A stretch of 64,000 nucleotides of DNA from Amoebophrya sp. A120 (taxonomy: Eukaryota > Protista > Dinoflagellata): the NCBI GenBank assembly GCA_905178155.1, contig CAJINV010000002.1:9187412-9251411 (forward strand), written 5' to 3'. A program made the position numbers and the translations under genes. The notes under the pieces were generated by a model. The model did not search any database, was not told the origin of the DNA, and worked only from the letters and a program-made list of their open reading frames with translations. Shown in pieces: positions 28,101 through 57,700 of this stretch; position 1 is the first letter of the stretch, and every line of letters starts with the position of its first letter.

Positions 28101-31100
28101 TTACAAAAAGAGGGCAAGGCTCGCTGCGCAGCCACGGCCAACTGCATTCAAACGACTTCCTCGGGTGCCTGTCAACACCACGTATTGACGGACGACAACA
28201 GCAGTAATTGCGGTACTAGCAGGAGCTACGTTGGGTGCGCGCAGTATGATGAAAACGTGCCACCTGATCGCGGTGCGGCGAGCAACATCTCATCATGCTC
28301 GCAGCAAGACAAGCCAGCAACTAGAGCCTTTCCAAGCTTCTTTGATCGTATGAAGGCACACACAATGCGGCTGCTGCAGCGACAGCGAACAGGTGGGAGG
28401 ACCTCTCGCGCCAACAGTACCTTCGGCGTCAACACTTCGCCAGCGGGAGGGAAAGATCAAGAGGCGCAAGAACACGACCAAAATGCTGCGACATATCCGC
28501 AATCGGAAACTTTGGAAAATAACAACACTGGCACCCGCGAACAGCAAGGACCGACCGACGAAAGCGACACAAAAGGCGCAGGAGCGGCGACAGAGCTTCA
28601 GACAACTGCTCAAGACTCGAACTTTTCACAGCCTAACGGTTCTTCCACCCAAGAGATACCCATCGTGGATACGCAACTGCAGCAGGAGCAAAATTCGTCC
28701 TCTCGGCCGCATTTGTTTTTGCGGAACGTGCACAAGAGCGAGCGCGAGCAGAAACAGATACAGAATGTGCGTCTGCACCAACCGCAAAACAATCAACGTA
28801 AAAAAACCTCTACCGGCCTCCTGGTTGTGAATAGCAACCCAATCGCCACGACTGCCAGCAGAGACATCACGACTAGATCGAGAAACTTTTCTTCGGTGTC
28901 GACGCATCACCAGGGCGGAGGAGGTGCAGCGGGTCCTGGGACGACTACGACGAGGAGTTCTTGCAGCACTGCTTCACAGTCTTGCCGCAACAATTTCAGC
29001 TCTAGTCGGCAGAATCATAATCACAACTTCTATCAAAACCAGAGGCTGTCGTACGCGCAGTACCAGCAGCAGAAATATGAGCAGATCCAAAGGGACCGTG
29101 CCTACCGCCGCCGCGTGCGAGAACGGGAACAGCAGTGGTATTACCAAAACCAGCAGGAGGCGCTACAGCGGGAGCACGAGCTGTACGTAGAGCAGTGGGA
29201 GGAAGAGTGTCGGCAGAGGAATCAACATTTTCACATGCTGCAGCAACAGGAACAGCAACAATACGGATACAACCAGCAACATCAAAATATGAACCAGTTT
29301 GATAATGATGCTCCACCCCATGATGACCCGGGTCGTGGGCAACAGCAGATGAACCAGCAGCAGCATAGTGTTCAGATGCAGGGACAGTATCAGGAGCAAT
29401 TGTATCATCGCCAGCACCTCCGCCAGCAGAATCACCAGCAGTGTCAGTACCAGGAGCAACAGTTGGCGCTAGAACAGGAGCAGCTGCGCGAAGAGCAGAT
29501 GCTCTTGGAGCAGGAGATGCTTCGGGAGCTATCAAAATGAAAAATCCCCCCTCCCCACATCAAAACGAAATTTCTGATGCTGGATTTGCGTACACAAATC
29601 CGATTTGTATTGCAGGAAGGCACTGCGGCCAGATTCCCAGGCTAGGTAGGGGCGTATGAGTCTAGTTGTTCAGCATGCCAAACGGCTCCCCTTTAGGCCC
29701 AACAGCATGGCAAATCGCTTCCGTAATGGGGCGGAGGCTTCTGCCCTTGTCTTCTTGCAAGACAGACGTGATTTGTGACCTCAAATCAGCAGCGCAAATT
29801 TTCGAAAACATAACTTTGCAATATGGGGAGGGGAGATTTTTCATTTTGATAGGAGCAGCAGATTTTCCAAGAAGAGCAGATCATTCGAGAACAGGAGGAG
29901 CACATGCGTTTGCAGGAAGAGGAGGAGATGCGTCGCCGGCGGCAGGAGGAACAGGACGAACAGCTGCGGCTGGGGCAGGACCGGAACATCGATGATGTGG
30001 TGCACATGCAGTATCAGACGCAATTGGAAGATTATCATGCGCAGGAGCAAGAACAGGCGGGGGCTGTTGTTCTGCCTGCGGATGTTGTGCATCAGCAGTA
30101 CAGCTGCAACCAACAAATTGTCACCCCACAGGAACAACGCCAGCAGCACGTCGTGCTGCTGATGCCCTCGCAGCGGCCTTCAGGAGCTTCTGTAGCGGGT
30201 TATGTATGCGGATCACCTCTCGGGTTGGTGCCACCTGTCACAATGCATCATAATCTGCCAGGGGGCGCAGCGGTGATGCATCATAATCAACATCTAAGCG
30301 ACCACGCAGTAGGACAGCAACATTGTTCTTCATCGGCGCAATTTATGAACACCACTAGTACGGTCTGCAGCCCGTACGCCGGCAACTACCCCAAAATGGC
30401 AGTTGGAAGTCCCAGTGGTTTGGTGCTCCAAGATACGGGGATCGATCATTACCTCCAGCAAGAAGAATTCGCGAAGCAGCAAAACAAACAAGAAAAACTG
30501 CGGTTGCAGTTGCAACAGCAGGGATATAAACCGGCAGCTTGTCAAGGTCCAGAGGAAGATCATTCAAATGCTGGGCCACACAATGTTAATTCGATGCCGC
30601 AAACGGTGTCAGAGGAACTTTTTCACCAGCAAGTTGCGTTGCAGCAACGGTTAGAGCACGAGCTGGAGCAGCAATTGATTGAAGCTAGTCAAAATAAAAA
30701 GTCCTCAACCTCGACCACGAGTGTCTTCCCTTCACTCGACGAGCAGCTGCAACACCAAGGGCTGCAACAAGAGGAACAATACCAGTACGACTTCTCAGGA
30801 TCATCCTGCGCTCAGAGCGTCTCCGAGAAAAATTTTCCGCGCGACGGCTCGCGAGGTGGAGCGGGAGTCGAAGTGGTGCAGCAGTATGATCTACAGTCTG
30901 GAATAAAGACAAACAACTACAATGGCGCCGGTCAAGTAGTCCATGATACAGTTCTTGCCGCGAGGACGGACGCCGTGCAGGAGGCTGCTTCCATGATCCC
31001 CTCCCCGGCCACGGCAATGTACAACGACGCCATGTATCATTTGCAGCAGGGCGATTCCTTTATGCTGGACTCCGCCACCGGAGCCGGCAATGAGAATGAC

Positions 31101-32325
31101 CAAAACGCGGGCGGAGCTGCTTGTACAGCTGTTTTTTCTTTCTACTTATTTCGATTGATTCATTTTGATTTGCCGGACAGAAGAAACAGCACGTCAAGCC
31201 ACTTCTGATAAAAATAAAACCATCTTTCTGCTTGTTGCTGTCAAGTACATTCGTTGCCTGTGGGTGTGGTGTACTTATAATTCTCGGTTACGTGGTTAAG
31301 AATACCTGGCTGCGTTTTTATATTTTGCATGTCGAACAAATTAAAATTATCGGCATGACGAAAAGTATCTGAAAAACCAAACAGGCAACACAAATCCGAG
31401 TTACGCCTTTCACGACGCGCACCAGCTGAGTACCAAGTCGACGGCCGCACCGACCGTGCCGAGTTACAATGGCAAGATGTCGGATCCGGACACGAAGGAC
31501 ATTCTGGTGAACGAGAACAAAAAAATGGCGCACGAAAACACAACAACTACCGCCGGAGCGTTTTTTGCCAACCAATCCCGGATGGGTGGGTCCTCTGGTG
31601 ACACGTCTTCATGTGAAACTGCGGAAAATTTTGATCCGGTCTGGGTCCCGCCCCAAGGTGGTTTTAACGGCCGGGAGGAAAGCGAAAATCATGGAAATCC
31701 AGCTGTGCAGAACAACGAGGACCACGAAGCGGTTAGCAAGAAGAACCAACAGCAACATGAACAAAACGTGTATAGTAATCAAAAACAGAGCAACACAATA
31801 AATCATAAGGCGGCGCAGCAGGAGAAGTACAACTATGCTAGCAGCTCCAATTTGTATCACAGTTTTACCAAAAACCATCCAAGAGCCACATCGTACGCTT
31901 CAAGCACGACGAGTCACCAGAATTATAAAGCGACATCTTCGACGACTTCGACGGGATTTTACAATAGTTATTCGGAGGTCGTAAAGTTTGGAAAAAATAA
32001 ACATAACGCCGGGTCTAATATTACCAGTGGTTCCACGACACAGGTGAATCTGCAGGGAAATTCAAATTTTGGAAGTAGAGCGAGCGTGTCTGCATCGAGT
32101 AAAAAAACGAAAACCACGACGACGGCGAGCGTGGACCCTTTTGCGGCACTGACCATGCAGTTCTCGGATGCTGTGCAAGAGAACGTGGAGCGCTGCAAAA
32201 AGGAGCGGGAGGAACGTGCCGCCGGTAATGTTGGAGGGCAGGTGGTAGAGAAGGAATTGGATCACAAATCTTTACTGACCCAGTTATTAAACGACCTGGA
32301 TGAAGATTGCGACGAACAGTTGTAA
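25167..32325 (+). CDS. Large low-complexity, Gln-rich hypothetical protein
   Basis: ORFs 25113..29540, 29904..31208 and 31456..32325 are joined by the introner at 29530 (LRE-Q-QIFQEEQ) and a probable GT-AG intron 31123-31384. No recognisable domain; the start codon is uncertain. Confidence 0.7.
29530..29851. mobile_element. TIR introner, family D, 322 bp, TSD GGAGC
   Basis: Left TATCAAAATGAAAAATCCCCCCTCCCCA, right TGGGGAGGGGAGATTTTTCATTTTGATA. GGAGC at 29525-29529 and 29852-29856. An in-frame TGA lies within the left TIR, and removal restores the Q/E-rich frame. Confidence 0.95.
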
Positions 32326-34920
32326 GCTCTCCACTCTACTTCCTTGATGTTTTAGTTTTTTTTTTGAGATATGGATAGACTCATTTCACACTTTTTACCA
32401 GACCTCTGGTATTTGAGAAGCAGATGCAGAAAGATACATGAAATATGTTGGCAAGAGAGGATCTGCAAATAGGCATGTTCTAGGTTTAAAGTTGCTTTGT
32501 AGTATGTGCATAAATGACATAGATAAAGACCATTGTCTAAGAAAACGCTGGAGCAATGTGATAAGCAAGTAATCGTTTATGAGCTTCGAGCTTTGTACCG
32601 GTAAAGTATCGATACAGTTCTCGTTTCCGTGTCGGATCGGACAACACAGTGAAAAAGCTAAGTTTTTTTAGAACCGGTGGATATATATTGAATAGAATTT
32701 TCTTTCATACTCATAGCTCTAAGAGAATGTTATACCCTATTAATTGTTTGGCTACAAACTAGTACTCGAACAGTATTTATCTTCTTCACAAGAGTACCGG
32801 AATGCATGTACCGCCGTCGCGGCATCGTCAATTAAGTATCATAGCAGCAAGTTTTGGGCTGCAGAATATTTAGGTAAGTACGTTCGGCCGGCGGGGGCGG
32901 AGATGAATTTCGAGCTGGCTCTCACGAAAGACGCGATGCTGAAGTTGTTGCGGCTTTGCTGCAACCAAGGCGCGGATGTGGCAAGGTCACGGCGTGATAC
33001 CTTCGGTCACGCTCATCAATTTGCGAGTACTGAATCCTTCTTATGATGAGAAATTTCTTATCCCAGGAGCAATGCAATAGTACGAGTCAACGTGTCATCA
33101 AGGCAAAGGCTGTAGTTTCAGCATTTGTTGCAATGTACCCATGTTAGACCACAAGTTGAGAAAAACAAACGCAGCACCTCATGCATACCTACGAAACAAG
33201 CTCATAAGCTGACACTGATTTTTTTATTTTTTGCGCTCTAGGCATGATTTTCGTTTTCAATTGATTCGTGCAAATGCTAGTACACTTTTCTGTGATGTTT
33301 TCTTTGTACCGGAAAGTCTAGTCAAGCCTAGTTCAATTTCAGGATTTCTACAACCTGCAGATCTACAATAATCTCTCTCTGCAGGCGAGACCGGAGCTAA
33401 ATGTTGCGACCTTGCTTTCCTTTTTTTCTCCAGCAGTTTGAACTTGTTTATGAAGTCAAGAACTGATCATAGGTTTTCGCTCTCAAATGTTAGAGAAGTA
33501 TATCGATTTTTTACAAGTTTTCTTTTTGTCTTACCGACAGCGTACTCGAAAAAAGATTAGGTAGTACTCTACATTTTGCAGTTGTCTATAGAAAACAACG
33601 AAACTCGTCTCGCTTTTTCGTGGCTACGTTGCGTTTCCACTAGTTGGCGAGGCTGGTAAAACGATAACGACTTGAGAAGTTGTCTTCCGTGTATGTTATT
33701 TGTCGTTTCAACATCCTAGCTACTTGGTATATAGAATTCTATGGACTAGAAACAGCTCAATCGTGACTGCGAGGAGTGTTTCGCGATGCAGCGGACGACG
33801 GGCTTCGATTTTCAGATCAGAAGCAAGGCCAAGTGGTCTTATTCTTACAAACACGGAGACTGCGGAACAGTGCCATGCGTCAGAAAAAGTATATGGGGAG
33901 TGCCACTTCACGTATTAAAAAAAAAGCAAACGGTTTGAAGTTGAACAACAAAGGCGAAACGTAGGGGGTCTGTGCTTGCCTGCTGACACAGTTAAATGAA
34001 CCTAGGTCAACATCAAACGCATTTTCGAACAGGAAATGGAAGCTACTGATCGGTAATCACTCGTGCCAGGAACTCATATACTAATACTTACTTTGCGACG
34101 ATATGTTTACAACTAAGTAGAGAAAGCGGTAGTTCTTGTCAGTGCGCACCGACTTCCTTTGATTCGGGAACGAGAAAGCAGGGTAGGAAATCTTTCGCAC
34201 TGCATGAAATCGATCTCAAGGCACAGGCGCACAAGATAATGACGAAAATCAGGGCTTTGTGTTGCTGTTGCGTTGCCGCCACAGCTTCCTACGTTTTGTT
34301 GTATGTGCAAATCTTTATCACCGTAGATAGATTACTTAAGTGTGAGTCTAGCCAGTACGAGTTTGTAGACAGCATGGCATAGCTATACTTGCAATGCGTG
34401 TTGATGTCGTGTTTTGCTTTCAGCTGCTACCGATGAATCTTGAATGACGAAGGTGACAAAAAACGATGATAGACTGGTGGAACCTATGAACGCTTGACGT
34501 AAGAAATGGCACAGTCTGACTCTGAGTCTACTCCTTGTTGTCCCGCAGGCATCACTTCGCTGCATAATTCGACCACCAGAAAGAGTGCTTGCTTTGTTTT
34601 GCACCTGGCTGGCTCCAATATCTGTGCGAGGCGCGAACCATGTGTCACATCATGAGAGGCCTATTTCTGGCGATGAAACGAGAGTAGTGGTCAGTGAGTA
34701 GCCGTTTCCTTCTAGAGGGGAACTTAGCAAGTAGTAAATCTTATCATAGACAACTACATGCGATCTGCTGCCATAATTTCTTTCGCGAAAGTCGTCCGAG
34801 CGATAGCAGTACCTCAGGCCCTCGTCAAAACGTGGTATAGAAGGTGAGTCCGTAGGTTATAGAGGTGCAGCTTTATGAACGAGTGCGCCATTTGCTAACA
34901 CTTGACGAAACCACACTGCT

Positions 34921-35383
34921 ATGGGTTGTGCCCTCCCTTCGTGCGGCGCTCCGCCGTGCCCGCCGAACGCAATCGACATTGTTGCCGACGTGCCGGGCTC
35001 GGACCCGACGCACAGCACCTTTGACGTTGTAGCGAAAGGCATGTTTATGCCGGAGCAGCTGCGTCCTTTTTTGAGCGAAAAGGAGTACGAGGACGTCATG
35101 ACCGAGGTGAACACCGTGATCAAGAGCCGTACTTACCCGGTCCGAGGAGTGCTGCCCGCCCAAACCAGGGTTGCTCGCTCTGTGGTGTTTGCTGATCGTC
35201 ACGATTTTTGCCGCGCTCGACTGGATCATTGCACGGTCCATCCGGAAGTTGGACAAGTGTGAAGAAAAAGTGAAGCCGTGGGAGGAAAAGGGGCTCGTGG
35301 TCCGCTTCTACAAAGGGGTTCCGAGCTTGAAGCCGCCCTTACAAAATAACCTGATCCGAGTCCACATCCCGCCAGGGCGGTAA
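34921..35383 (+). CDS. Small lipid-anchored membrane protein, Erf4/GOLGA7/CHIC-like (tentative)
   Basis: MGC N-terminus (myristoylation/palmitoylation-type) and PEQLRPFLSEKEYEDVMTEVN helix followed by hydrophobic LLALWCLLIVTIFAALDWII. Two overlapping ORFs are joined by a phase-1 40-nt GT-AG intron 35129-35168. Confidence 0.6.
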
Positions 35384-36179
35384 GTAATGGGTTTTCATTT
35401 GTGGCTCGCTAATTGGGATGATTTTTCGATCGTCTGAATATGAGCGGTGCGGTCTTCGTCTTGGTTGGACTTGAAGATGATATGAATGCTTTCTATAGCG
35501 ACGTGGTGGCTGGAAGTTTGTAATCAGGCATTTGCGGGCAGCTTGTCATCGTGTCCTCCTCACTTCAGAATCTGCAACTGCAGGAGCTATTCTTTTGCCG
35601 GCTGTTGCTAATCTTTTTCGAAAAAATTTTCTCCTAGCATATTGCTCCGCTTTGGAGGATCATCTTTTTCTTTCGGAAAATAGTTCGCAACGCAATCAGA
35701 ATTGCTTCTTTCGTAGCCTGATTGCCCGTTGATGCGTACGAAGATTCATACGACTCACGTATAGAAGTACAAGTAGAAGAAGAAGCCTGGAAAAGCAGGA
35801 CCGATTTCATCGTGACCTGCTATTATCATCGTATCTATGCGTTCCGTTCTTGTTCTTCATTCACTCAGCGGCTGAATACTTAGATCTACGAAGCACCACG
35901 ACGCATCGTATTCCAGGATGAAGATCAACTACAAACGTGCTCAATCCTATTGCATATGCTTGTGAACACGTCAACAGTTGTGGTGGATTTCCATTTTCAC
36001 AATACCGCTTGGAAAGGATTCCGCAAAAGGTTTTCCGATCAATTTCAATTCTGCAGAAAAAAATAGTTCCTCTATGTATTCATTCCTGAAGTTGTGCCTT
36101 TGCCCGCAACTGCGAATAGAAGACATTGGTATTGTTCCTGATAAATTTGTCGCGACCTTCACCAGACGCAGACTTGCGC

Positions 36180-39100
36180 ATGGCAACCGCTCCCGGCAGG
36201 TCTGTCCAGCAGGTCGGCGCGGCCGGGGCTGATGCCGGCGGTGCAGCCGAGATGAAAAACCGGACGGGCGATGTGGAGAACCCGAACTCCCACAGCAAAC
36301 TCGTGGTGTACAAGAGTCGGGTGGCGTATGTACGGAAGATATGTCGCGAGGACGAGTATCTCTTGCCGCACCTGAGGCATCCACACCGCGAGCACTTTGA
36401 GCACTGCCGGCGGATAATCCTGGACATCAAGGAATGGTGTATTGGAACTGTTTGTGAGGTTGATTTTGGAGGAGCATAGGAGTGCAACGACCCATTGTTT
36501 CTTAAGTCTGTACCTCTTGGTTTTATTGCATAAAGTACGTAGATCTAGAACTAGTACTAGATGCAATATGTATCCGGCATGGTGCTATCACTGAGGAGGA
36601 CGAACATCGAGCCCAAGCACCGCTGTGACGGAGTATCAACATTTCCGGACTCCAACTCAGGGCCAATCCGGCGTTTTGGCACCAATGGCTGAAGGACGGT
36701 GGGCTCCCCGATGCGGAGGTGGAACCGGACCTGATTTCCATGCGGCCAGACCAGGTGATGACCCGCATGCGCACCTGGCTGCGGTACCCGGAGCGCGCGC
36801 TGTCCATCCGGTGGCAGTCGGTGTTGACGGACATGATTCAGGTGCTGACCGACCTGGGGATGCAGCTGAACGACCTCTACTCCATGCTGTCCAACGACCG
36901 CTTTTCCGTCGTCGCGCTGTGCGACGTTTTCGCGGCGTACGACGAGATCGAGCGGGTCACGGTGCAGATCAAGCGGAAAAAGCGGCGGAAATTCATCGAA
37001 ACAAGCTGGAACTGCGACAAGGAGAAGCGGTTTCTGCTCATGGTGTTTCTCGAGTGGAAACGCACCGTGGAGTACGAACGGGACATTGAGGTGTTAAAGC
37101 AGTACGTGGAAAACACGAAAATAGCCTTGCAAGACGCGGTGGAGGCGAACGCCATGCACGACTTTCTGTTGCAGTTCAAGTTCCGGTATCAAATGTAAAA
37201 ATGTCTGGGTCTGGAAGATCACCAGGTTTTTCATGCATATTTTCAATGACCCATGATGTCTGTGATGCATGCCCTAGCATCACAGATTTTTAGAGGACTT
37301 TGTGATGCCTTTGCCGCATGAGAAATGCCCTCTCCGCGTTGCACAAACTTGAGTTCTCTTGCTGGTCATGCTCATGCAATACTTACAAATTTTTTCAGAA
37401 TCCAGAGACAGCATTACAAGTTTAGAACCTTCCAGACCCAGACACTTTTGCATTTCATATCCGGCTCGAAAACGAGGTGCTGCCCGCTCTCGAGAAGACG
37501 GAGCAGGAGTTGATCGAGGTGAAAGTGGAGCGGGATGCGTTGCAAAAGGCCAAAATCCAGTTGGAGAAGGTATGACCCGCTCAGACGTTACAATCTCAAC
37601 TGTTACAATAGAATCTGGATTTTGTGATGCAAGAAGTGCATGATCTACCCAACTCGCATAGCTTTGCGCATGACAAGTTCTGGAGTGCCAAACCGCACTA
37701 GAATCTGCCGAAATTTGTATTGCGAAAAGCGCAATACTCTGCACGTTCCTCATGCTCTTCATGCAACACAAATTCCAGATTCTATTGTAACGCTTGAGAT
37801 TGTAACACCTGAGCGGGTTATAGAAGGAGTTGAAACAGGTGAAAAAGGAGTTGGAAATCACGAAACAGCTGTACGACCGGATCAACCGGAAGATCCGATA
37901 TCAAATGTAAAAATGTCTGGGTCTGGAAGAGTGCAACTTGTGATGCTGAATTTGGATTCCACAAAAATCTGTATTGCATGAGCAGCAAAGGGAGTGTAAT
38001 TTTTGCTACGCGGAGAGGGCATTTGTCATGCGGAATAGGCATCGCGAAGCCCTCAAAAAATCTGTGATGCTAGGGCACGCATCACAGACATCATGGCCCA
38101 GGCAAAACATGCATGACAAGTCTCAGAATCTTCCAGACCCAGACATTTTTACATTTGATATCCGAAGATACATCCCCAACGTGGCGAAGTTGGGGGAGCG
38201 GTTGGGCAGGTTCATGGAGGAGGCGCTGGTCCGGTTCGTGTTGCAAGGCTTCACGGCGAACAAACTGCAGGAGTTGCGGTTCATGTTCAAGAAGCTGAGC
38301 GCCGCGCACGCAGACACGCTCTTAAAGGTAGAGGAGGACGCGAAAGAAATTAGGGGCTTGAACGACAACATCGCAGATCTGGAGTTGAAAGTGTCGAAGT
38401 TGGAAGAGGCGTTGGCACATAATATCGGTATTCTCTTTGCTTGCATGTATCATGAAATTAGTTGTGCAGATTGAGTCCATGAATAGAAGAATTGGTACAA
38501 GGAGGAACCAGGTACCCTACCGAACCAGGTACCCTGGACCAGGTACCTGGGACCAGGTACCTGGGACCAGGTACCCGGGACCAGGTACCCTGGGACCAGG
38601 TACCCTGGGACCAAATACCCAGGGACCAGGTACCCAGAAAGCAATCCCCGTCCTTGGGTTGGCAGTTTGGTGGGTGGGTTCGTTTTTCGCGTGCCAGGGC
38701 GCCCGCTTCCGGGCGGCCAGAGCGGCGTACTGTGGTGCGCTGTATCCACGGGCGCGTGCGAAAAAAGTCTGCACATTTGGCCACCGCGTAGCATGAAGAA
38801 AGGAGCGGCCTCCCCTGGTTCTAAAAACGGCGGACCGGCGTACCCTGTTCCGTTGGTGCCTACAAGGGCTGGGCGCCCTATGAAAAGAGGCACCGGGGGC
38901 CCACGTCCAGGCATTCGCGTCTGGGTGCCGGTTGCCCACATCCAGGCATTCGCGTCTGGGTACCCGGGCCGTTACCCACGTCCGGGTATCCACATCTGCG
39001 CACCGGGTGCCCCCCTCCGGGCACCCCGGTCCGGAGATGTGCCCACCTGGTGCCCAGATGTGGATATCGGCTGTTGCTGAACTGTGGGCACCCGGTGCCC

Positions 39101-41160
39101 AGATGTGAGTGCCAGGATGTGGGCACCTTGCGTCCGGATGTAGGCGCCCACCTTTTCACCTTTAGCTAGCAGAAAGCCCCACGAAAAGTCAAGCGGTTTC
39201 ACATCTGGATATCTACATCGAGGCACCGGGTGCCCACATCCGGCCACTGCTACCCACATGCGGCCATCTACATCTGCGTACCGCGTGCCCACATCCGAGC
39301 ACCCGGGTACGGAGATGTGGGCAGCCGGTGCCCAGGTGTGGACGCCCAGACGTGAACCGCTTGAGCTTTCGCGTGACTTTTTTTTTCAAGTAAAAGCTCA
39401 AAAGGTGCTCACATCCGGGTATCCACATCTCCGGTCCGGGTGGCCACATCCGGGCCCCGGGTACCTTGGTCCCAGGGTACCTGGTCCAGGGTACCTGGTC
39501 CAGGGTACCTGGTCCCAGGGTACCTGGTCCCAGGGTACCTGGTTCCTACCTCTACCAGAAGAATTTACATGATATGAATACAATTGCAGAGCGTAAGAAG
39601 CACTACGCGGAGCGAACGCGCATGGCGAACAACGAGTTGCAACAGCAAACCGCTATCAAATGTAAAAATGTCTGGGTCTGGAAGAATGCAACTTTTGATG
39701 TTGCATTTGGATTCCAAAAAAATTTGTATTGCATGAGTACCAAAGGAAAGGCAATTTTTGCTACGCTGAGAAGGCATTTGTCATGCGGAATACGCATCAA
39801 GAAGCCCTCAAAAAATCTGTATTGCTAGGGGGTGCATCACCGACATCATGGCTCATGCAAAACGTGCATGACAAGTGTCAGAATCTTCCCGACCCAGACA
39901 TTTTTACAGTTGATAACCGCGACGAGAATACAACACGAACACGAGATCCGGAATGTTCTGTTGCCCAAAATCGAGCGGATTCTGCAGGAGTTCGCGGATT
40001 TTCGAAAGGAAACCGCGAAGAAGGAACAGATGCTGAACAACCGGATCAAGAAACTGCAGGAAGATTTGGACGACATGCGGGCGAAGTACCTGTTCGAAAA
40101 GCGGGAGAAGGAGCTGTATCAGCAGCGGTCCGCGGACTTCGAGTTCCAAACGCAGCAACTGACGGAGAAGAGCGGCAAGTTGGAGAAGGAAAACACCGCC
40201 ATGAAGCGCAAGATTGCACAGCTGACGAAGGAGAACCAACAACTGTTGCTTTTGACCCAGGGCATCGGCCCGCCGGTGCCCGGGGGCTACATGTGTTTGG
40301 TTTGTCAAGAGGACATCATGACGCGGAACCGGCAGGCGAAGTTACAATCCGTCGGGAACGCGGACCTGGCCCGGGTTCGGGAGAGGGAGAAGGACCAGAG
40401 CGGGAGTTCCACAGCGCGGCGGGAATCGCAATCGCCGGCAAGTCAGAGAAGAGCAGGGGCCGCGAACAACCGCAGCAGCTCTGCGGAGCCGGGACCCCTC
40501 GACGCGGGCGGTGGCAAGGTGATCAGCATGCAGGACGTGAGTCAGAGGATTTTTCAGTCCCCGTCGAAGCGCGAAAGTCCGGAGAAAAAGCAAAAGGAGG
40601 TCCAAGCCGCGCTGCGCGTAGCAACCAACTACGAAAGGAAAGTGGAAGACCGGGGAGTGACGGACTCCTCCGGAGTCGACGGGAATCTTGACTTAGGTTT
40701 TGGCGGGTCGGATGAGCCGGAACAGCAAGATCCGGCTCATGAAGACCAGCACGGGGGGACGAAAGCAGAGGAAGTCATGCGCGAGGGCGAGAGTGGGGCC
40801 GGAGATGAGACTGCGGAAAACGAGCGAAAAACCACGGGGACAGGAAATGTAGTTGACTCGCAGCATGATGGCTTTTGGGACGACGTAGTTGATGGAGGTG
40901 GAGAAAGTCTTTTACAGGGAAGCAGACCGCAAGCTGCACTGCCAGATGCACAAAACGGAAAAAGCCATCAGGTAGAAGAGAACGTCGGGACCGAAGGTGT
41001 CACAAAGCAAGCCTTCATGACGCAGCTGGAAGTTGATCCGCGGGTAGGGAATGTGGCTGGAGATACGCTTGGTCGAGACAGTGCGAATGAGCATGACAAA
41101 CGTCTCGACGGCCGCCCTGGAAGTGGAGGTCGTGACGCTCCTGCTGAAAATGACGGGTAG
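36180..41160 (+). CDS. Hypothetical coiled-coil protein, 7 exons, four junctions formed by TIR introners
   Basis: Exons 36180-36436, 36661-37186, 37465-37570, 37828-37898, 38166-38427, 39590-39653, 39921-41160 give one continuous frame (LLQFKFR-LENEVL...IQLEK-ELKQV...RKIR-RYIPN...AHNI-ERKKHY...QQTA-TRIQHE). Long heptad-rich helices and a CxxC (MCLVCQ). Confidence 0.8.
37187..37459. mobile_element. TIR introner, family A, 273 bp, reverse orientation relative to other family A copies, TSD TCCGG
   Basis: Left TATCAAATGTAAAAATGTCTGGGTCTGGAAG, right CTTCCAGACCCAGACACTTTTGCATTTCATA. TCCGG at 37182-37186 and 37460-37464. The interior matches the reverse complement of the 37899 copy. Confidence 0.95.
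37571..37822. mobile_element. TIR introner, family B-related, 252 bp, TSD GAAGG
   Basis: Left TATGACCCGCTCAGACGTTACAATCTCAACTGTTACAATAGAATCTGGA, right TCCAGATTCTATTGTAACGCTTGAGATTGTAACACCTGAGCGGGTTATA. GAAGG at 37566-37570 and 37823-37827. Shares CTCA.ACGTTACA.TCTCAACTGTTACA with the 19626 element. Confidence 0.93.
37899..38160. mobile_element. TIR introner, family A, 262 bp, TSD TCCGA
   Basis: Perfect 32-bp TIR TATCAAATGTAAAAATGTCTGGGTCTGGAAGA. TCCGA at 37894-37898 and 38161-38165. Removal gives RKIRRYIPNV. Confidence 0.96.
38494..39556. mobile_element. Non-autonomous foldback/MULE-like element, 1063 bp, 9-bp TSD AGAAGAATT, inside canonical intron 38428-39589
   Basis: AGAAGAATT at 38485-38493 and 39557-39565. 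Ends GGTACAAGGAGGAACCAGGTACCCT and AGGGTACCTGGTTCCTACCTCTACC are imperfect inverted repeats, followed by inverted arrays of about 15-16 bp GGGACCAGGTACC(C)T units. GC-rich interior with repeated GGTGCCCACATCC-like motifs and no coding capacity. Confidence 0.85.
39654..39915. mobile_element. TIR introner, family A, 262 bp, TSD ACCGC
   Basis: Left TATCAAATGTAAAAATGTCTGGGTCTGGAAGA, right TCTTCCCGACCCAGACATTTTTACAGTTGATA. ACCGC at 39649-39653 and 39916-39920. Colinear with the 37899 copy. Confidence 0.96.
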
Positions 41161-41792
41161 TGGAGAGGTTGATCAGAGAAATGTAGGAGATCAAGCTCGC
41201 TGCAAAAGAAATTTGCTGCGAGTATTGCTGTGAATCCTACGAACACGATCTGACTGCTCTTCGCAAAACGACCAAAAATCCTGCTCCGCGAAATCATTTG
41301 GTGAAATTTGTAGAGTAGAGCCCAGCTGCGCGCCTTAACTTTATTTTGTTTATGTCGATCTAATCTGTGAAATAAATTGACATTGCGTGTGATGCTTTCG
41401 ATCTTTTCAACCTCTGACCAGTAGTGCATGAATGTGTGAGCGTAGCATGCTTCAATTGCGGCCGCCATGCAGCAAGGTTACCAACTCCAGCGCGATCGTA
41501 GAAAAGCTGTGTTCTTCACCGAGCTTTTAGCACGAGCCGTTGGAAGATAGTTTGTACGAGGTTCCATGCCCGTGCACAAGTTGAAATTGATATAGGAAAA
41601 ATCACACAGCGAACAGGCGGCGCCTGACTGGCCCCATATTCGCGGCACCCCCGGCCGCTTCTGTTCCGCACTTGCGCAGGCGCCGCACAACGCTTATTAC
41701 TTAGAGTTTACTCTTGCAGTGCTCTTATTCAGTGCGCTAATATGACAAAGGCTGAGATTTTTGCTTCTAAGTAGAGGTGCCAGAAGATAAAC

Positions 41793-49600: not shown

Positions 49601-50368
49601 AAGTTCGCGGGAGGAAAAAAATCTAACACCGGCGTGCTCGGGGTTTCCCAGTTGTCGGCACAAAATAAAAGGACACGGGACAGGGGCGCACTGAGAGGAC
49701 AGTTACAACTTTTTAGCAAGAAGATACTACAAAGGTACAAAGCGAACATGAAGGCCAAAACCCCGATGAAAGTGTGGTCAAAGAAACGACAATGCCGGAG
49801 CAGAGCGCGTAAACCCGGCTTGGTTCAGGTACGCATATCTGCTGTTGCGATATTACTGTTACTTTTTACACGTACCGTAATACGACCTGCAAGAACGTGA
49901 TGGCATAATGTAAGGGTCGAAGCTTTATTTTGCTGCACATATGCAGGAGCATTTTGGACAGTTTTAGTTTTTCTTTTGAAATATCAGTTTTTGTCGGCCT
50001 GGCGGACAGCGAAAGCCGCGCGCGTCGACCACCCGGCTGCCCCGGTACGAATGCAACGTCATATCAAGAAGACCACCAACGACCCGCTCCGCAAGAAAAT
50101 CGTGGCCCAGGGGAAAACGGTTTTCGATTTCCGGAAAGTGGCGAAGAAGCTGCTGAAACCCCGGCGGGCAGCAATGGCTACCAAGAAGTCGGAGTTGTTC
50201 GTGCCGAGTTCTTCCACCCGCAGGAAGGCGGAGGCTGCAGCTGGGTCTGTGCCGCATGTCCGACCAGCCCACCAGCCCACCATGGATCCACGTGAGTTTC
50301 GATTCGTCGGACCAACAACCAAACTCCCGAAGACGCGGGACATGTCGAAGGGGTTCCGACGCCCCTGA
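43629..50368 (+). CDS. Probable multi-exon gene (or two adjacent genes): disordered IKxE-rich middle, Cys-rich segment and C-terminal AP2-like segment
   Basis: Successive + strand ORFs 43587..44444, 44994..46976, 47026..47361, 47378..47938, 48761..49057 and 49976..50368 separated by AT-rich gaps. GT-AG intron 49045-49204 yields GITYVPGW...CWRVQFKHREVGKKTTRRMKRFFFVAPKF...EAKAAALEDAKR. The full exon structure is not resolved. Confidence 0.45.
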
Positions 50369-51686
50369 AATCAGATAGTAGCTGTAGTTTCATTTTCTGA
50401 CATTCCTATCTACACTATTTCTCCAGGAAGCCCTCGCACTTCTGATTCACGCTGCTGTATGAACAACGTTAATTGTCCGCAACTTCTACAAGTCGCAGGG
50501 AGGTACTACGGTATTTTCCAGAGATAAGCACAAGTGTGGAGTTCGACTGCAAAGAACGCGCCGAAATGTTTTTTAGGAAAATAGAGCGCTGCAGGTAGAT
50601 CTACTACAGGATGTTTCTTTCATATGCCACCGTACGTAGAGCTAGTAGACTCTCGGTCATCGAAACGTCAATTAATTTTGCGAAAGTGATGAAATATTCT
50701 TGAAAAGCGTGCACGACGTTAGGTTTTGCGCCTCTCAGCCTTGTGCTAAGATTATACGAGAGTTTCGTGGCGAAAATCGTGTCAAACAAAACCGCGACTG
50801 TTTCCTATGTATTGGATCTGGCACACTGGTGGACCAGTCGAAGCCCCTCGCTTCACTAGGATCCATTTCTCCTTTTGACATACTATGTACATAATCCTGC
50901 TCTCTGATGATAGATAACTAAGGTCACTGTCTTATTTCCATCCTTGATCCTTCGCCGCAGTTTTTTGTCGAGGTAAAACATTGCTCACACACTCAAAGGG
51001 GTTGCGTCGACATCTAACTCGAAGTTTCACAATGGGTGCGACTTTGACACGGTTGTTTTATTAATAGCGCCACTCTCTACTTGTGCTTTCTCCTCTGCGT
51101 AAGTATGACGTGAAGAGTTCACGTTTTCCTTATTCCTTTCGACGTGATGCATACCGAAGACGCAGAAGGTGTGCTCGCTCTGCTATGCTATCCAGAATGA
51201 TGAGCAGCGAATCATTGTAAGCGGTTTGAGTTTCGCTTCGTTATATCGTTTCTGCTTTTAGTGACAGCTCACTATCTTCGAGTGCCCATTGCAATGCTCG
51301 ATCCGTTTTTTCCGAAGAACATACACCGACCGGTCTTTCTCACCTTCACTTGGAAGTGAGCCCATGCAGCTGCACTTACAAACTTCGTTTATGTTTTCTC
51401 GGATAAGTGGCCCTGCGTCGTGTGGTTTCATAGCCTGTTGTCGATAGATATTTCCCTGTCAAATATTGAGTCGCAGAGGATCACAGCAGGAGCAGCAGCA
51501 GTATTACATACGAGCTACCTGTTCAACCGGGCCATAGTTTCGTGATATTCCGGCCTAACTGGAACTTCACATATTTTTTTTATCTATTAATCCTTTCGGA
51601 AACGCAATGATTTTTCACATTTTCACTTTTTAACTTCCCTTCTCGCCTTCGAACGCCTTCTCCTGCTGCACAAGTTCGATCCGGAA

Positions 51687-51715
51687 AGGGTTTAGTTTAG
51701 GTTTCAGGGTTTAGG
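51687..51715 (+). repeat. Short degenerate interstitial telomere-like (TTTAGGG) tract
   Basis: AGGGTTTAGTTTAGGTTTCAGGGTTTAGG, within a segment bracketed by near-identical CACTTTT(T)AACTTCCCTTC repeats at 51624-51642 and 51717-51734. Confidence 0.5.
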
Positions 51716-54703
51716 ACACTTTTAACTTCCCTTCATTTTGATTCGATTCCATTTTACAGTATGTTGCACTTGATTTTTTACCGGCCTTCGTGTAGTCTTT
51801 CTTGAGCTTATTCATAGGAAGATTGGCCAACGAGGAGCGTATCTCACATCACAACTGCTGTCGCTATTGTGTGATGCATGCTCGGGTTTGGTAACCCGCT
51901 CCATGCGAGAAGAAAGTTGTTGTAGCAAATGCTGCATGTTTTACACTATTTCTACTTCCCAGGCCCAGTCCCACTCCCACAGGTGTTTCCCAAAGCCTTA
52001 CTTCCCAAACCAAATATATTGGCAGAGTACTTGTTTTTCTTCTCAGGCAACAATCAAAGAAATTATGAAGGATGGCCAAGCATTTCTTGTGCATGGAATG
52101 TAAGTGTAAGTGTATCCAACCAAATTGTTATTGTTGTTCTGTTTTTTTAGTTTTGCTTCCCAATCCAATGGACAGATTTCAACTAACATTCTTAATATTT
52201 CCGGCCGTTGCAAGTTTCCTATTTTGTCCACCTCCACACGCGTAACGCTGCAGGAAAATTTGGAGCGACGCGACAGCTATACACGCTTGCAGTTTCGCTT
52301 GTGATTTTTCTTGTTGTTGTACTCCAGTGCTACCGTCACACCACTGCGAGCATAGCAAGCCTGTAAAATTTCGACTCGATTCGATCCTATTCGTACTTGG
52401 CACGAAATCTGTAGAAGTCCTGCTCTATAATTTTGAACTACGAAAATACGCGACCATCGCGAGGATCTTTATATGGTGTGCCTAGGTAGCTTAACAAAGG
52501 TAAGTAGTTTGCATAGAAGCTGAGTACAGCTACAGAGGTGTCCTCCCCCAACCCCATAACGCATGATTATTGAGAGAAGAGACCCAGTAATCTAGTCCTT
52601 TCTTTATCCCGGTTTTAAAGTGAAAAGTTGCACTTGAAGCCACTCAATGCTTTGACTAAAACCCAATCACTTCGTTTGGAAGACCAAGCGAGCCCAGAGT
52701 ACGTATAGTACTTCAGCTTGTGCTTATTGGTCTGCGGATTTCAAACGGAAAAACTAAAAATCATTGTGCCGCATCCGCACCGCGACGGCATTGCATAGTG
52801 TAGTTCACATTTCCATATAAGCCACCAAAAAAAAAAGTTAAATTTTCGATGGTTCGACTGGTTTACATCTTGTTCCCACATGATTTGAATGCCGGGAATA
52901 TATTGGGATACGATACCCCGTCTGGTTTTTAGATCAAGTTATAAATTTCCATGCCTTTATTTATTACCTATCTTTCCATAAATAAGTAGCTTGAAACGCT
53001 TCCGCTACTCATGGTGTGCCTGCATCGCTAGGTGCTGCTTGTCCATGAGCAAGCGGTGCACTCAAGCAACAACAGTGCACTGTGGCAGCACCGTTCTCAA
53101 TTTTTCCAGTTTGACGCACGTTTTTTTTGGCGACATGAGAACCTATCGGCCTAGTTTGGTTCATTTGAGTCCCGAAACTAGAGAACATATATATAATTTT
53201 TTTGCATAGCCGCTTCTTGTTTTTCCTTCTCAAGTCAGTTCGAAGTCAAGCAGTTCCTTCGAGAGCAGTTTCTGGCTCACCTTGGTAGCTATTACAGTAC
53301 CGAAGAAGCTTGCGCCATATTGTTTTTCCTTCTCATTAGCCCGGTGCAAAAAAATGCAACTTCATGCTGATCCATCACTGCTCGTACCTATTTTTGTTTG
53401 CTTCGTTCTCAAGTGAAACAAATGGAGCGGATGAATTTTAATTCAATCCCTGCTTCATAGCAACAGACTCGGGATTTGGCACGATATTTAGGATGAATTT
53501 CCAAGAAGCATGCAGAGAAAAAAAAAGTGAATGCTTTGCCAAAGAGCGAAGCAATCCATATGGCATCCACTGCGGTGTGGAGTAGAAAACTCTCGAACAA
53601 AGCGGAAAAAGTTAAAGAAGATCCTGCTCCCAGTGCTGTGCATTGCATGCCGCCTCAAGGGCGGTGTGTGTGTACACGCCCGTGGAGCTACTAATTGGAT
53701 CCAAAATTTTATCTTCAACAAAAGGGTTCGAAATGAAAAATGTCAATCAGGCCGAGGCGAGATGCATGAGAAAAAATAATTAAATTTGTATAGTTAGATG
53801 AAAACCAGACTAGTATGGAAGTGACTGATAACTTAGACAGGGTTTAGGGTTCGACGTGTGCTCCCGTCTGGCGCGTGAAGTTATTACATTGGCCGGTACA
53901 AGACTATCGGTGGGCCTGCCAGGGTTGGGCTAATTTCCCTGTCCCCCCTTAAGCATGATGTCGATAAGCCCGGGGTTTGTATGAGACGTGGGCGGGGTGC
54001 AGGTTCCTCGTTAGCCGCCTCTACTAAAACTAGTACGCGTGGTCAAGTTTAGCTCATGAAGTAACTCGCCGGAGCTCTTACAGCCCCGATTCCACCCCAG
54101 TCCTTGCGTCCTTGTTTTCAGAATTCCGGTCCGATCCAACTTATTCTTATATTTTTATTTTTCGAAAGAAACGAATGCGAATCACAATCAAAATCAATCG
54201 GAATAGCACCAACACGAAGAAGAACAAGAAGCATAGGGCTTGTTTCTATGTCCGTGAAAATGTTGATGTGAATCAGAAACAAAACGTCAAGCTCCATAGT
54301 TGACAATACAGGACTCGGCCAAAAGTCTTCATTTTACAACCGGAGCCGCGGCGTTGTTCTGATGATGTGGCCCTCTAGTCTGTTTCGTTTGCCGTTCTCG
54401 TCTTGAAGATAGCTCTTCTCATGGATCATGATCCATCTGCGTTGGAAGAAAATTCCCACAGCCATGTGGAGTAAAGTATCGTGAGGGACGCCTTCTGATT
54501 CTTATGTCGAGCAATTTAGATCACCATCACTTACACTTGCGCCGAAGCGTTGCCTTTACGTACTTATGTGAATGTGGGCTGAAAACGATGAAGGTCGGTA
54601 TTTAATGCGGCTTCCCTGCTGAAGCAAGGCAAAATCTCGAAAAGCTACCCACACGACCCCTGCCACCGTCTGCAGATACCACAAGAGCTGCACCACCTCT
54701 CTG

Positions 54704-57700
54704 ATGCAGGCACCAACCTCGGGGAGCAGCCCCCGCGACGGCGAGATGCCCTTCGCGCTGGGTCAACGGGTGAGCGTGAACCGCCGACTCGGACATGTGC
54801 GCTACATTGGCACCCCGCCGTTCGCTCCCGGCATCTGGGTCGGCATTGAACTGGACGAACCCGTTGGGAAGAACGACGGCAGCGTGCAGGGCAAGAAGTA
54901 CTTCAGCTGCAAGCCGAAGCACGGCGTCTTCGTCAAAGCCGAACAGGTCAAAGCGGAGGAGTCCGCGGCCTCGGTGGCCTCGAGTTCCTCCAGCCGCGCC
55001 GCCCCCTCGAGCTCGGCAGCGCCCGTGCCCAAAAGTGCCGCGGTAGGTACTTTGAGTATTTTGTTCAGATCGAGGAGATTTTTTATGTTCCTCAGCATTT
55101 GGTTTTTTTTTTTTCTCGTGCTGTTTCGGATTTGAATTTTTTGCGCTTGCGCACGTTTCGCATGGCGGAAATGGATGTAATGTTCGCTTATTTTATGCGC
55201 TAATCACTGACACACGACACTGGCGCCGGTTTGACGTAGTACTTCATGATCAGGGCAAATAAATTTTTTCAGCCGCCACTTCCTCTTCGTCTTCTGGTAG
55301 TTCGTCCGCGTCTTCGCGCGTGCCCTCCGGCAGTCCTCGCGACCAGCAACATCCCGCAGCCGCGTCCAGTAGCAAAGCTTCTTCGAACAACAATCCACCT
55401 GCGACATCAGCGCAACAGGCACAGCCCGCGTCGGTGCAATCCGCGCGTTCCGCGGCTACCTCGTCCAGTGCGGCAGCGGAGTCGAGCAGCCAAAGTGCGG
55501 CGGGGCAGCAACACGAACAGCAGTACCAAGCATTGCGGAAGAAGTACGACGATTTGAAGCGGATCGCGCAGCAGTACAAGGCCCAGAACGAGTATGGGAG
55601 CGTCAGGATTGAAATCGTCAAAGTTGAAATACTTAGTTTGTCATGTATAAAATGCAGCCCACAGATTGCCTCTCTTGCAGAGTAGGCAAGTGAGGCAGAT
55701 TGTAAGCCTCTTGAGGGGTAGAAGCTGAGCTGCTAAAGTAGCATGACAAACGACGTCTTCCTTACCCAAACAGCGTGACAAACTGGATTTCGGTTCTACC
55801 CAAATTTGTCATGCGCCACTTGGAAGTGGGTTAGAAACTTTCATCCCATTTATGCATTACATACAAGTTATTTGAACTTTGTGTCGATTTCAATCTTGAC
55901 ACATCCAGAACGAGGAACTGAAAAAGGCCTTAAAAGATCACGCCTCCACCACCGCGGCGAACAGGACGCAGGCCCAAGCGAGCACGGAAAACGAGACGCT
56001 GGCGAAAGCGGAACTGGAAACCGCGCGGTTGGAGTTAGAGTTGAAAAGCAGCGAGATTGAGGAACTGAACTTGAAATTACAGGAGGCAGATGACGCTGCG
56101 GGAATGGTGCGGCTAAAAGGTCTTCTATATGGATTTATTAGCGTGGCGTGTTGATCAGTCTCAGTGCGTGCTTGCTCCTGCATGTGCTGCTAGGTGAGTA
56201 GTTGCATCATGTTGAACAACTATCGAGATGCAAATATGATCATTCTTATCTCAATCCTAGGTCGCGAGTCCCAGTCCACCCTTTCTGCCTACGAGGAGGC
56301 GCTGCAAGTTTTGAAAAAGGATATTGAGAGGAAATATCCCCCCTCCCCATATCGAAAAGGCATGCTTCCGAAAATTTGTGTTGCTGATTTGAGACCACAA
56401 ATCACGTCTGTCTTGCAAGAAGACAAACGCAGAGGCTTCCGCGCCATTATGGAACCGATCTGGCATGCTGTTGGGCCTAGAGGACAGCCCTTTGTGATGC
56501 TAAGTAACTAGACCCAAACGCCCCTCCCTAGGCTGCGGATCTGGCTGCGATGCCGTATTGCAAGACAGCGCGCATTTGTGTACACAAATCCTGCATCACA
56601 GATTCCCATTTGATATGGGGTGGGGGCTTTTTTCATTTTGATAAAGGAACTGGAAAAACGGGACCGGGAAGTGGAGCAGAAGGAGAGTCAGTTGAACCAC
56701 CTCACTGCCGACCTGGCCGACCACAAGCAGCTCGCCCAGCTGACGTTGAAAAATGAGGGGAACGAGGCAGATTTGCAGAACTTGCAGTCGGAGATGGTGG
56801 AGCTGCTGGAGAACCAGTTGGAGGAAAAAAACTCCGTTCTCGACCAAGTTCAGCTCGCGGTCAACGACATGCAGGTGGAACTAGAGCAAGCCTACGCGGC
56901 AAACGAGGAATACCGGGTAAAAGTGAAGGAGATGGAGCGTAACTTGAAAAAACACCTGCACGTCGTTGAAGCGGCAAAGGAGAAAGGGATGAAAATTTCG
57001 CTCGGTAAGTACATTGATTCAATCTTGTTCCCACGTGAGGACCACATTTTGCTCAAGGAAACATTCCGTCTTTGTGAAATAGTACTCTGCCACCTTTGCA
57101 GATGTAATGCATACTTACTTCGCACGAAGACGAACTTTATCAGGCGCCGATCTCCTTGCCGCGTATTCCCGTTCCTACGCAGAGCAATTGGAGATTTTCC
57201 GTGCCTGTTTGCCCGACCAGATCCAGACCCACGCTACTCCGCTGGATGTTTCGGGCTACAACCTGATCGCACAAGTCTCCGAATTTATCGCAGACTTCCT
57301 GTTCGATTCTCTTCCCGACCGGTTTGACTGCGCGCCCATCTGGTGGGTGCAGGTTGACCTGCGGAGCATCCAGCACTCCCTCGCGATTGTCTTAAAGACC
57401 CTGTTCGCAAAGTTGGACGGTGGAGATTACGGAGTTGCAGCAGCAGCAGGAGAAGCTTCGGGAATCAAAACTAGAAAATTACGGCAAGACGTTGAGCAGG
57501 ATTTGAGCTTCATCGCCAACGTTGCCTCCGACATCCAAGAGCTCGAATCCTTCTCCCACAATCTCATTTCCGCCCTAGAGCACCCGGAGGGCATCATTCC
57601 CGGGTCGCTGCAAACGCAGGCGGGCGCAATGGCGGCAAAATTTCAGAGTCTGGTAACCAAGGTGCTGGCGGGCGGGGAATCCGAAGATGAGGGGGAGGAG

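What the first reader, a model, noticed from the sequence alone, without database searches (positions are those of the whole stretch)
29530..56643. Same element family works in either orientation (family D)
Seen: the 322-bp copies at 29530-29851 and 56322-56643 are reverse complements of each other along their interiors (the spurious peptides of ORF 29662..29844 minus and 56194..56511 plus align), yet both sit in + strand genes and both restore the frame on removal. Known: spliceosomal signals (5' site, branch point, polypyrimidine tract) are strand-specific. Inference: the removal signal is symmetric, either the TIR hairpin or bidirectional motifs, and not a classical polarised intron signal.
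Basis: partly seen in the sequence, partly recalled or inferred. Interest (0 to 1): 0.8.

Follow-up and report, generated by a model that had tools for sequence, protein, structure and literature searches.

The report
Two-way transposon introns of Amoebophrya
Two inverted copies of a small transposon-like insert sit in same-strand genes of the marine parasite Amoebophrya A120, where such inserts are already published; one copy is cleanly missing from spliced transcript contigs and the other likely is, likely because mirror-image ends show the splicing machinery the same signals whichever way a copy lands.

Summary
A (29530-29851) and B (56322-56643) are inverted copies (260/322 identical) with TAT...ATA inverted ends and 5-bp duplications. 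Removal must be 327 nt (element plus one duplication); it deletes in-frame stops rather than repairing a frameshift. The window is Amoebophrya sp. A120, and these match its published introner elements (Farhat 2021). B is skipped exactly in a spliced contig; for A the RNA evidence is indirect. In other loci both orientations interrupt conserved enzyme genes, and a second family lies both ways in one gene whose ortholog aligns without gaps. The inference is only partly supported. Inverted ends make the sense-strand first and last 30 nt of A and B 24/30 and 26/30 identical, so even a polarised signal survives inversion. Both copies also allow a GA-AG reading, but 29 of 36 elements allow no G[TCA]-AG. 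Two-way introners are published for Polarella and Aureococcus; I found no statement for A120. This scan noted the same thing on other A120 DNA. Best guess (0.55): a relaxed spliceosome cutting 1 nt before and 4 nt after the ends. Tests for selection on the RNA hairpin were negative.

The parts
29530..29851 (+). Family D copy A: 322-bp TAT...ATA inverted-repeat element (orientation used as reference)
   Evidence: TIR 24/25; folds as long hairpin, z -7.95; 8 in-frame stops; X1 contig piece ends at 29524 with 221 letters left (indirect)
29525..29529 (+). Upstream 5-bp duplication of A (GGAGC); second copy at 29852-29856
56322..56643 (-). Family D copy B: inverted relative to A, inside a + strand gene
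   Evidence: 260/322 identical to A in reverse complement; skipped exactly (327) in X2 contig and in P0001; hairpin z -4.36
56317..56321 (+). Upstream 5-bp duplication of B (AAGGA); second copy at 56644-56648
21409..21728 (+). Distant family D relative, probably in A orientation (score 270 vs 239, weak call); duplication CGCAT; no G[TCA]-AG reading possible
   Evidence: skip of 325 in 186+144 raw X9 RNA reads, 76 start points; registers; orientation
25059..31208 (+). Host gene of A (Gln/Glu-rich, no family hit); frame runs open at least 900 nt either side once 327 nt are removed
   Evidence: no homolog found for residues 600-1400
54704..60018 (+). Host gene of B: CAP-Gly plus coiled-coil protein P0001, 1133 aa (dynactin p150/CLIP-170-like; that name is recalled), with 3 GT-AG introns and 4 introner-type introns
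   Evidence: PF01302 E 3e-29; 100% match to A120 protein; exon map; all 7 joints in X2 contigs
37187..37459 (-). Second family (F2), inverted relative to 37899 and 39654 in the same gene; no G[TCA]-AG reading
   Evidence: skipped 278 in P0002; ortholog P0003 gapless across it
37899..38160 (+). F2 copy; no G[TCA]-AG reading
   Evidence: skipped 267 in P0002
39654..39915 (+). F2 copy; no G[TCA]-AG reading
   Evidence: skipped 267 in P0002
58560..59022 (+). F2 copy with about 200 extra internal bases; duplication GGTGG allows GT-AG
   Evidence: skip 468 in X1 and X2 contigs; alignment
14917..15171 (+). F2-related element, duplication ACAAG
   Evidence: removal of 260 opens a frame 733 nt up and 755 nt down
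37571..37822 (.). TAT...ATA element of another family, duplication GAAGG (allows GT-AG)
   Evidence: skipped 257 in P0002
59064..59348 (.). TAT...ATA element, duplication AAACG; no G[TCA]-AG reading
   Evidence: skip 290 in X1 and X2 contigs
55593..55909 (.). Decayed element ending AGA instead of ATA, duplication ACGAG; no G[TCA]-AG reading
   Evidence: skip 322 in X1 and X2 contigs
19626..19860 (.). TAT...ATA element, duplication TCGCA
   Evidence: not covered by my RNA lays

Best explanation
A and B are inverted copies of one multi-copy TAT...ATA inverted-repeat element with 5-bp duplications, likely a non-autonomous DNA transposon, and element plus one duplication is missing from spliced transcripts (shown for B, likely for A), likely cut out by a relaxed spliceosome that reads only the mirror-image ends. 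Insertion by a transposase acting in trans would be blind to gene direction (inferred). After inversion the sense strand still begins TAT-N7-AAA and ends TTT-N7-ATA (shown). The cut likely falls 1 nt before and 4 nt after the element (taken from earlier scan notes; only weakly tested here). The intron would then begin N-TAT, copying positions +2 to +4 of the host's frequent GTAT donor. The T-tract of the 3' arm would serve as pyrimidine tract and the end hairpin would bring the two sites together. The terminal Gs are not required (shown: several removed elements allow no G[TCA]-AG).
For: Organism: P0001 and P0002 are 100% A120 proteins. Signature: A120 introner IRs start TAT, 7 variable nt, then at least 3 A (PMC7789003 section 11); seen in 36 elements. 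Copy number: X5 summed depth is about 45 outside and 27,000-190,000 on element bins (rough, not a copy number). Exact removal: B, 55593, 58560, 59064 in X2 contigs that also skip GT-AG introns; 21409 in 330 raw RNA reads, with 0 in DNA contig run X5. Both orientations: family D 6 like A (plus 1 weak call) and 3 inverted relative to host genes. Removing the two inverted copies in L002 gives one open frame of an alcohol-dehydrogenase-like protein (PF08240). Removing two A-like copies in L001 does the same for a PseB-like protein (PF02719; 2gn4). F2 lies both ways within P0002, and ortholog P0003 aligns 344/486 without gaps across all four junctions. Register: all 9 predominant A120 non-canonical pairs have T at +2 (Table S4). 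One L001 element with a decayed duplication gives M-R-G-G-E-I only for cuts -4/+1 to -1/+4 (homolog M-H-G-G-E-I). GTAT starts 4 of 7 RNA- or annotation-supported canonical introns (background 0.047, p 1.6e-4). A120 has U2, U4, U5, U6, U2AF and SF1 but no detected U1 snRNA or snRNP27. Loss of SNRNP27K goes with +4 U donors in yeasts (PMC10581693 abstract).
Against: Nothing here shows the spliceosome acting: no lariat, branch point or knockdown data. All 12 window duplications are perfect, so RNA cannot place the cut. G at the -1 position is only 15/36 vs 27.6% background (p 0.048, uncorrected) and not different from its mirror control (C 9/36, Fisher p 0.21). AG at the predicted 3' end is 3/36, at background. 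A branch-like YTRAY motif is in the last 60 nt of only 5/36 sense vs 7/36 antisense strands. No sign of selection on the RNA hairpin. Table S4 pairs depend on aligner placement inside repeats. The SNRNP27K link comes from fungi. The GTAT count is small (n=7). A's joint was not seen directly, and no RNA joint was seen for F2 at 37187, 37899 or 39654. Farhat et al. found no transposase in A120.
Confidence: 0.55

Rival explanations
1. A separate, non-spliceosomal activity recognises the terminal hairpin or its TAT/ATA core and cuts at a fixed distance, as proposed for Euglena nonconventional introns; orientation blindness then follows from the structure.
For: Ends are predicted to pair (mean probability >0.5) in 34 of 36 sense strands; A and B fold far better than shuffles. 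Terminal dinucleotides are free. U1 snRNA was not detected. An 8-nt exon between two elements in L001 fits local, element-by-element recognition. In Euglena a complementary CAG/CTG pair near the ends is required (PMC12501133 section 7).
Against: No excess of G-U over A-C pairs (34 vs 37) and no sense/antisense folding difference, so the hairpin is explained by transposon ends alone. Family D tolerates A-C mismatches at arm positions 4, 5 and 7 in the A orientation (L001 2785, L003 2927). 15% of A120 canonical introns share the same DR/IR layout, which suggests one machine.
Confidence: 0.25
2. As in Polarella and Aureococcus introners, ordinary dinoflagellate G[TCA]-AG sites are recruited from the duplication, and only insertions that happen to supply them persist. 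For A and B this would be GA-AG.
For: A and B both allow GA-AG. Such readings are mildly enriched: 4/12 in the window (p 0.019) and 7/36 overall (p 0.043) vs 9.2% of random exon sites. The mechanism is published for two-way introners (bioRxiv 10.1101/2020.10.14.339549).
Against: 29 of 36 elements allow none. Three of these are skipped exactly in RNA data (21409, 55593, 59064) and three more in P0002 with ortholog support. The 7 cases are spread over four different registers. It cannot explain the system; it could hold for A and B alone.
Confidence: 0.1
3. The elements are removed from DNA (precise somatic excision or empty alleles), not from RNA.
For: The ends look like cut-and-paste transposon ends; X1 and X2 are only guessed to be RNA.
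Against: The same X2 contig skips GT-AG introns too. X9 is recorded as RNA-Seq. DNA contig run X5 shows 0 for the 21403->21729 joint, and its long pieces run into the ends of A. Contigs drop rare variants and some X5 joints were not counted.
Confidence: 0.04

Closest known systems
Amoebophrya sp. A120 introner elements / non-canonical introns (Farhat et al. 2021, PMC7789003; read: abstract, sections 10, 11, 12, 16, found passages, supplement part 4 and Table S4-S6 rows; figures not seen). Also Gozashti et al. 2025, PMC12130899 (passages)
   Same: Same organism; TAT+7+AAA inverted ends, 5-bp direct repeats, free terminal dinucleotides, hairpin, 235-463 nt, multi-copy.
   Different: Nothing structural. 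In what I read, 'orientation' refers to gene order or methods; two-way splicing and a fixed cut position are not stated there.
Polarella glacialis and Aureococcus introner-like elements (Roy et al. preprint 10.1101/2020.10.14.339549; read parts 1-2 of 4; supplements closed)
   Same: TIR/TSD DNA-transposon-derived introns; several classes (2, 3, 6, 7, 8, 10 and others) create introns in either orientation.
   Different: Those use GT/GC/GA and AG sites drawn from the duplication or the element end; most elements here allow none (29/36).
Euglena nonconventional introns (PMC12501133; read abstract, section 7, passages)
   Same: Non-GT-AG introns with complementary ends and frequent direct repeats; MITE origin proposed; machinery unknown.
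   Different: Core motif CAG/CTG set 3 and 5-6 nt inside the borders, not TAT/ATA; unrelated lineage; 'orientation' does not occur in that paper's main text.
Fritillaria borealis non-canonical introns (seen only through passages of PMC11282704 and PMC7789003; the original paper was not read)
   Same: TIR/TSD-derived introns without GT-AG.
   Different: Preferred AG-AC/AG-AT borders; here no preferred pair.

Membership tests
Amoebophrya A120 introner elements | Lies in the A120 genome | tested here: met
   Two window genes are 100% identical to A120 proteins
Amoebophrya A120 introner elements | Inverted repeat at both ends starting TAT, 7 variable nt, then at least 3 A | tested here: met
   A: TAT-CAAAATG-AAAAA; B: TAT-TGAGAGG-AAA; profile of 36 elements
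Amoebophrya A120 introner elements | 3-5 nt direct repeat over the exon/intron borders | tested here: met
   Perfect 5-bp repeats at 12 of 12 window elements
Amoebophrya A120 introner elements | Repeated in the genome | tested here: met
   2-3 copies in the window, 9 more in L001-L004; very high summed contig depth
Amoebophrya A120 introner elements | Removed from RNA as an intron | tested here: met
   B: joint in X2 contig; 21409: 330 reads. For A only indirect
Amoebophrya A120 introner elements | Identity with one of the 1,954 published A120 families | not testable with these tools
   Family sequences are not in the supplement text searched
Polarella/Aureococcus-type two-way introners | Intron creation in either orientation | tested here: met
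   Family D 6 (+1 weak) vs 3; F2 both ways in one gene
Polarella/Aureococcus-type two-way introners | G[TCA] donor and AG acceptor supplied by duplication or element end | tested here: not met
   Possible in 7 of 36 elements only, A and B among them
MITE / non-autonomous TIR DNA transposon | Short, TIR, TSD, no transposase, multi-copy | tested here: met
   the element ORFs were not searched against families but are short and lie in either direction
MITE / non-autonomous TIR DNA transposon | Autonomous partner with the same ends | not testable with these tools
   No genome held; Farhat et al. report no transposase in A120
U2-type spliceosomal intron | GT/GC-AG ends | tested here: not met
   Neither A nor B allows GT-AG or GC-AG
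U2-type spliceosomal intron | Lariat formation at a branch adenosine, snRNP dependence | not testable with these tools
   No lariat data; YTRAY in 5/36 sense vs 7/36 antisense 3' regions
Euglena nonconventional intron | 5'-N3CDG...CH'GN5-6|R signature | not tested
   Not scored; the conserved core here is TAT/ATA plus A/T tract
Structured RNA families (group I/II intron, snRNA) | Rfam match | tested here: not met
   0 matches at gathering score in the window

The most novel reading that the evidence does not exclude
A120 has a splicing machine blind to both orientation and terminal dinucleotides. It measures a fixed distance from the transposon's mirror-image ends, whose TAT copies +2 to +4 of a GTAT donor read by U6 without U1 snRNA or snRNP27. 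Any insertion of these transposons, anywhere in an exon and either way round, is then silent: a mobile element that is an intron from birth.
Probability: 0.35. Interest if true: 0.75.

Novelty: already known. Interest (0 to 1): 0.38.

Why it matters
How A120 removes its non-GT-AG introns (65% of RNA-supported introns) is open. Two-way removal narrows the search: the signals should lie in the roughly 30-90 symmetric terminal nucleotides or their pairing, not in the family-specific middle. It would also explain why these elements spread through coding exons without needing favourable target sites. The elements are published, two-way introners are published for other algae, and orientation blindness is close to what inverted ends predict, so surprise is moderate.

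Tried and rejected
Whole-genome orientation counts: no genome held; records behind L001-L004 not held, so counts rest on the window plus 3 of 4 loci. L004 (3 elements found, 2 of family D) was left out because its gene strand could not be told. One L001 element with a decayed duplication (4305-4607) was missed by the finder and is not among the 36. G-U vs A-C wobble test for a selected RNA hairpin: 14 vs 9 in the window, 34 vs 37 in 36 elements, p 0.81. The three G-U pairs in B's arm are an inherited family asymmetry, present as A-C in A-oriented copies, so rejected as compensation. Sense vs antisense folding: no difference. Polarity of duplication bases: inconclusive. A crude GT-AG gene predictor misplaced the donor in 3 of the 6 RNA-known introns, so its GTAT count (9/39) is not used. 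Protein search for A's host gene: nothing at E<=0.001 among 7,985 scored candidates. The look-up of sequencing runs: no RNA holder listed for 27000-36900. Raw RNA runs X8 and X9 had no depth at A; X9 and X10 had none at B, so no splicing efficiency by orientation. Rfam: no match. Pfam: 3 of 23 ORFs with any hit, 1 above cut-off. Literature: 7 searches gave no paper stating two-way splicing for A120. Subscription papers (Huff 2016, Henriet 2019, Roy 2023 journal version) were not read, figures of PMC7789003 were not seen, and bioRxiv supplements were closed; any of these may state it.
Full report
1. Observation. A (29530-29851) and B (56322-56643) are each 322 bp, begin TAT, end ATA and are flanked by perfect 5-bp duplications. 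A matches the reverse complement of B at 260/322 positions (blastn E 1e-82). The central 142 nt match 115/142 inverted but 70/142 in the same direction, equal to shuffles (69 +/- 4), so the inversion is real. The spurious peptides align 39/56. Two corrections: the removable unit is element plus one duplication, 327 nt; and as this is 109 codons the insert does not shift the frame but brings 8 (A) and 2 (B) in-frame stops.

2. Organism and family. Two window genes are identical to proteins named Amoebophrya sp. A120. Farhat et al. 2021 (PMC7789003) describe A120 introner elements with 3-5 nt direct repeats and inverted repeats that start TAT, 7 variable bases, then at least three A. The window holds 12 such elements, all with perfect 5-bp repeats. 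An exact-pattern scan gave four more loci, L001-L004, with 9 further family D copies. These come from another assembly and their strain is not established.

3. Are they removed? For B, yes: an X2 contig skips 56316-56642 (327) and in the same record the GT-AG introns beside it and the elements at 58560 and 59064; depth inside B is 0 in X1 and X2. X1 and X2 are guessed RNA, one sample, but their contigs lack GT-AG introns. P0001 skips the same seven stretches. A distant family D relative at 21409 is skipped (325) in 330 raw reads of RNA run X9 and in none of the DNA contigs of X5. For A the evidence is indirect: a 798-letter X1 contig lies on 28948-29524 and has 221 letters left; the joint table was cut at 15 rows. 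Removal opens a frame of at least 900 nt on either side. No raw reads covered A or B, so efficiency is unmeasured.

4. Both orientations. Relative to host genes, family D is A-like in 6 copies (A, three in L001, two in L003) plus one weak call (21409), and inverted in 3 (B, two in L002); two L004 copies were left out. Removing the two inverted L002 copies yields one open frame of an alcohol-dehydrogenase-like protein, and removing A-like copies in L001 does so for a PseB-like dehydratase. The best case is a second family: 37187 is inverted against 37899 and 39654 inside one gene, P0002 skips each exactly with one duplication, and an ortholog from another organism aligns 344/486 with no gap across those junctions. 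None of the three allows a G[TCA]-AG reading. I saw no RNA joint for them.

5. What this says about the signal. On the sense strand A and B share 24/30 and 26/30 of their first and last bases, 61/90 and 59/90 over 90 nt, and nothing above chance in the middle. Over 36 elements the 5' arm and the reverse complement of the 3' arm have the same base profile. Orientation blindness is therefore built in: a hairpin reader and a polarised motif reader both see the same thing after inversion. A and B also each allow GA-AG, so the pair alone does not exclude the Polarella route of drawing splice sites from the duplication (preprint 10.1101/2020.10.14.339549). The wider set does: only 7 of 36 allow any G[TCA]-AG, over four registers. 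That is a mild excess over the 9.2% expected (p 0.043), which counts slightly for the rival.

6. Mechanism. Earlier unreviewed notes of this scan report two-way removal and a cut 1 nt before and 4 nt after the element on other A120 DNA; I took the cut rule from them. My own tests are weak but compatible. All nine predominant A120 non-canonical pairs in Table S4 have T at +2, including CT-AG, which is A's reading under that rule (B would be AT-GG). One L001 element with a decayed duplication gives the conserved M-x-G-G-E-I with R only for cuts -4/+1 to -1/+4 (in one search the tool shows the query's first GTG as m, the chain reads MHGGEIF). G at -1 is 15/36 (p 0.048, uncorrected; mirror control 9/36, p 0.21), and AG at the predicted 3' end is 3/36, at background. 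Under this rule the intron starts N-TAT; 4 of 7 supported canonical introns here start GTAT (p 1.6e-4). A120 keeps U2, U4, U5, U6, U2AF and SF1 while U1 snRNA and snRNP27 were not detected, and SNRNP27K loss goes with +4 U donors in yeasts (PMC10581693 abstract). I therefore favour a relaxed spliceosome reading the symmetric ends (0.55). Shown: anatomy, inversion, exact removal, freedom from G[TCA]-AG. Inferred: transposase insertion, cut position, spliceosome, role of the hairpin. Against a selected hairpin: G-U 34 vs A-C 37 and equal folding of both strands, though ends are predicted to pair in 34 of 36. A Euglena-like separate activity (PMC12501133) remains open (0.25).

7. Novelty. The elements are published for this genome, and intron creation in either orientation is published for Polarella and Aureococcus. 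In seven searches and the passages read I found no statement of two-way removal for A120, but several key papers, figures and preprint supplements were out of reach. What may be unreported is the combination of orientation blindness with dinucleotide blindness and a fixed cut. Verdict: real, of an already known kind, a useful constraint on an unsolved splicing mechanism; interest 0.38.

Noticed in passing
window 38494-39556: 1063-bp element of another type with a 9-bp duplication and dense internal inverted/tandem repeats, nested in the GT-AG intron 38428-39589 that P0002 skips. A 9-bp duplication suggests Mutator-like (recalled).
   Followed up: partly
window 21011, 21777, 22190, 38428 (vs 55047, 56120, 57005): 4 of 7 supported canonical introns start GTAT, the same TAT that opens the introner ends.
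   Followed up: partly
window 55583-55914: Element with AGA instead of ATA at its 3' end and a 10-nt direct repeat at the borders is still skipped exactly.
   Followed up: partly
L001 1012-5402: PseB-like (UDP-GlcNAc dehydratase) gene split by at least 12 elements, with an exon of about 8 nt between two of them; F2-related copies appear both ways.
   Followed up: partly
L001 2785-3105, L003 2927-3247, L004 4207-4528, window 56322: A family D sub-lineage carries a fixed asymmetric arm (arm positions 4, 5, 7-9), giving G-U pairs in one orientation and A-C in the other; both persist in genes.
   Followed up: yes
window 23661 and 20776: X8 has one extra T behind 23661 in 810 of 878 reads (0 of 368 in X9); X9 reads A for G at 20776 in all reads. 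Likely strain or allele differences.
   Followed up: no
window 58560-59022: F2 copy lengthened by about 200 bp inside, still skipped exactly.
   Followed up: partly
window 146-63148: The longest ORFs are all on the + strand, fitting the co-oriented gene blocks of Amoebophrya; most have no Pfam hit.
   Followed up: no
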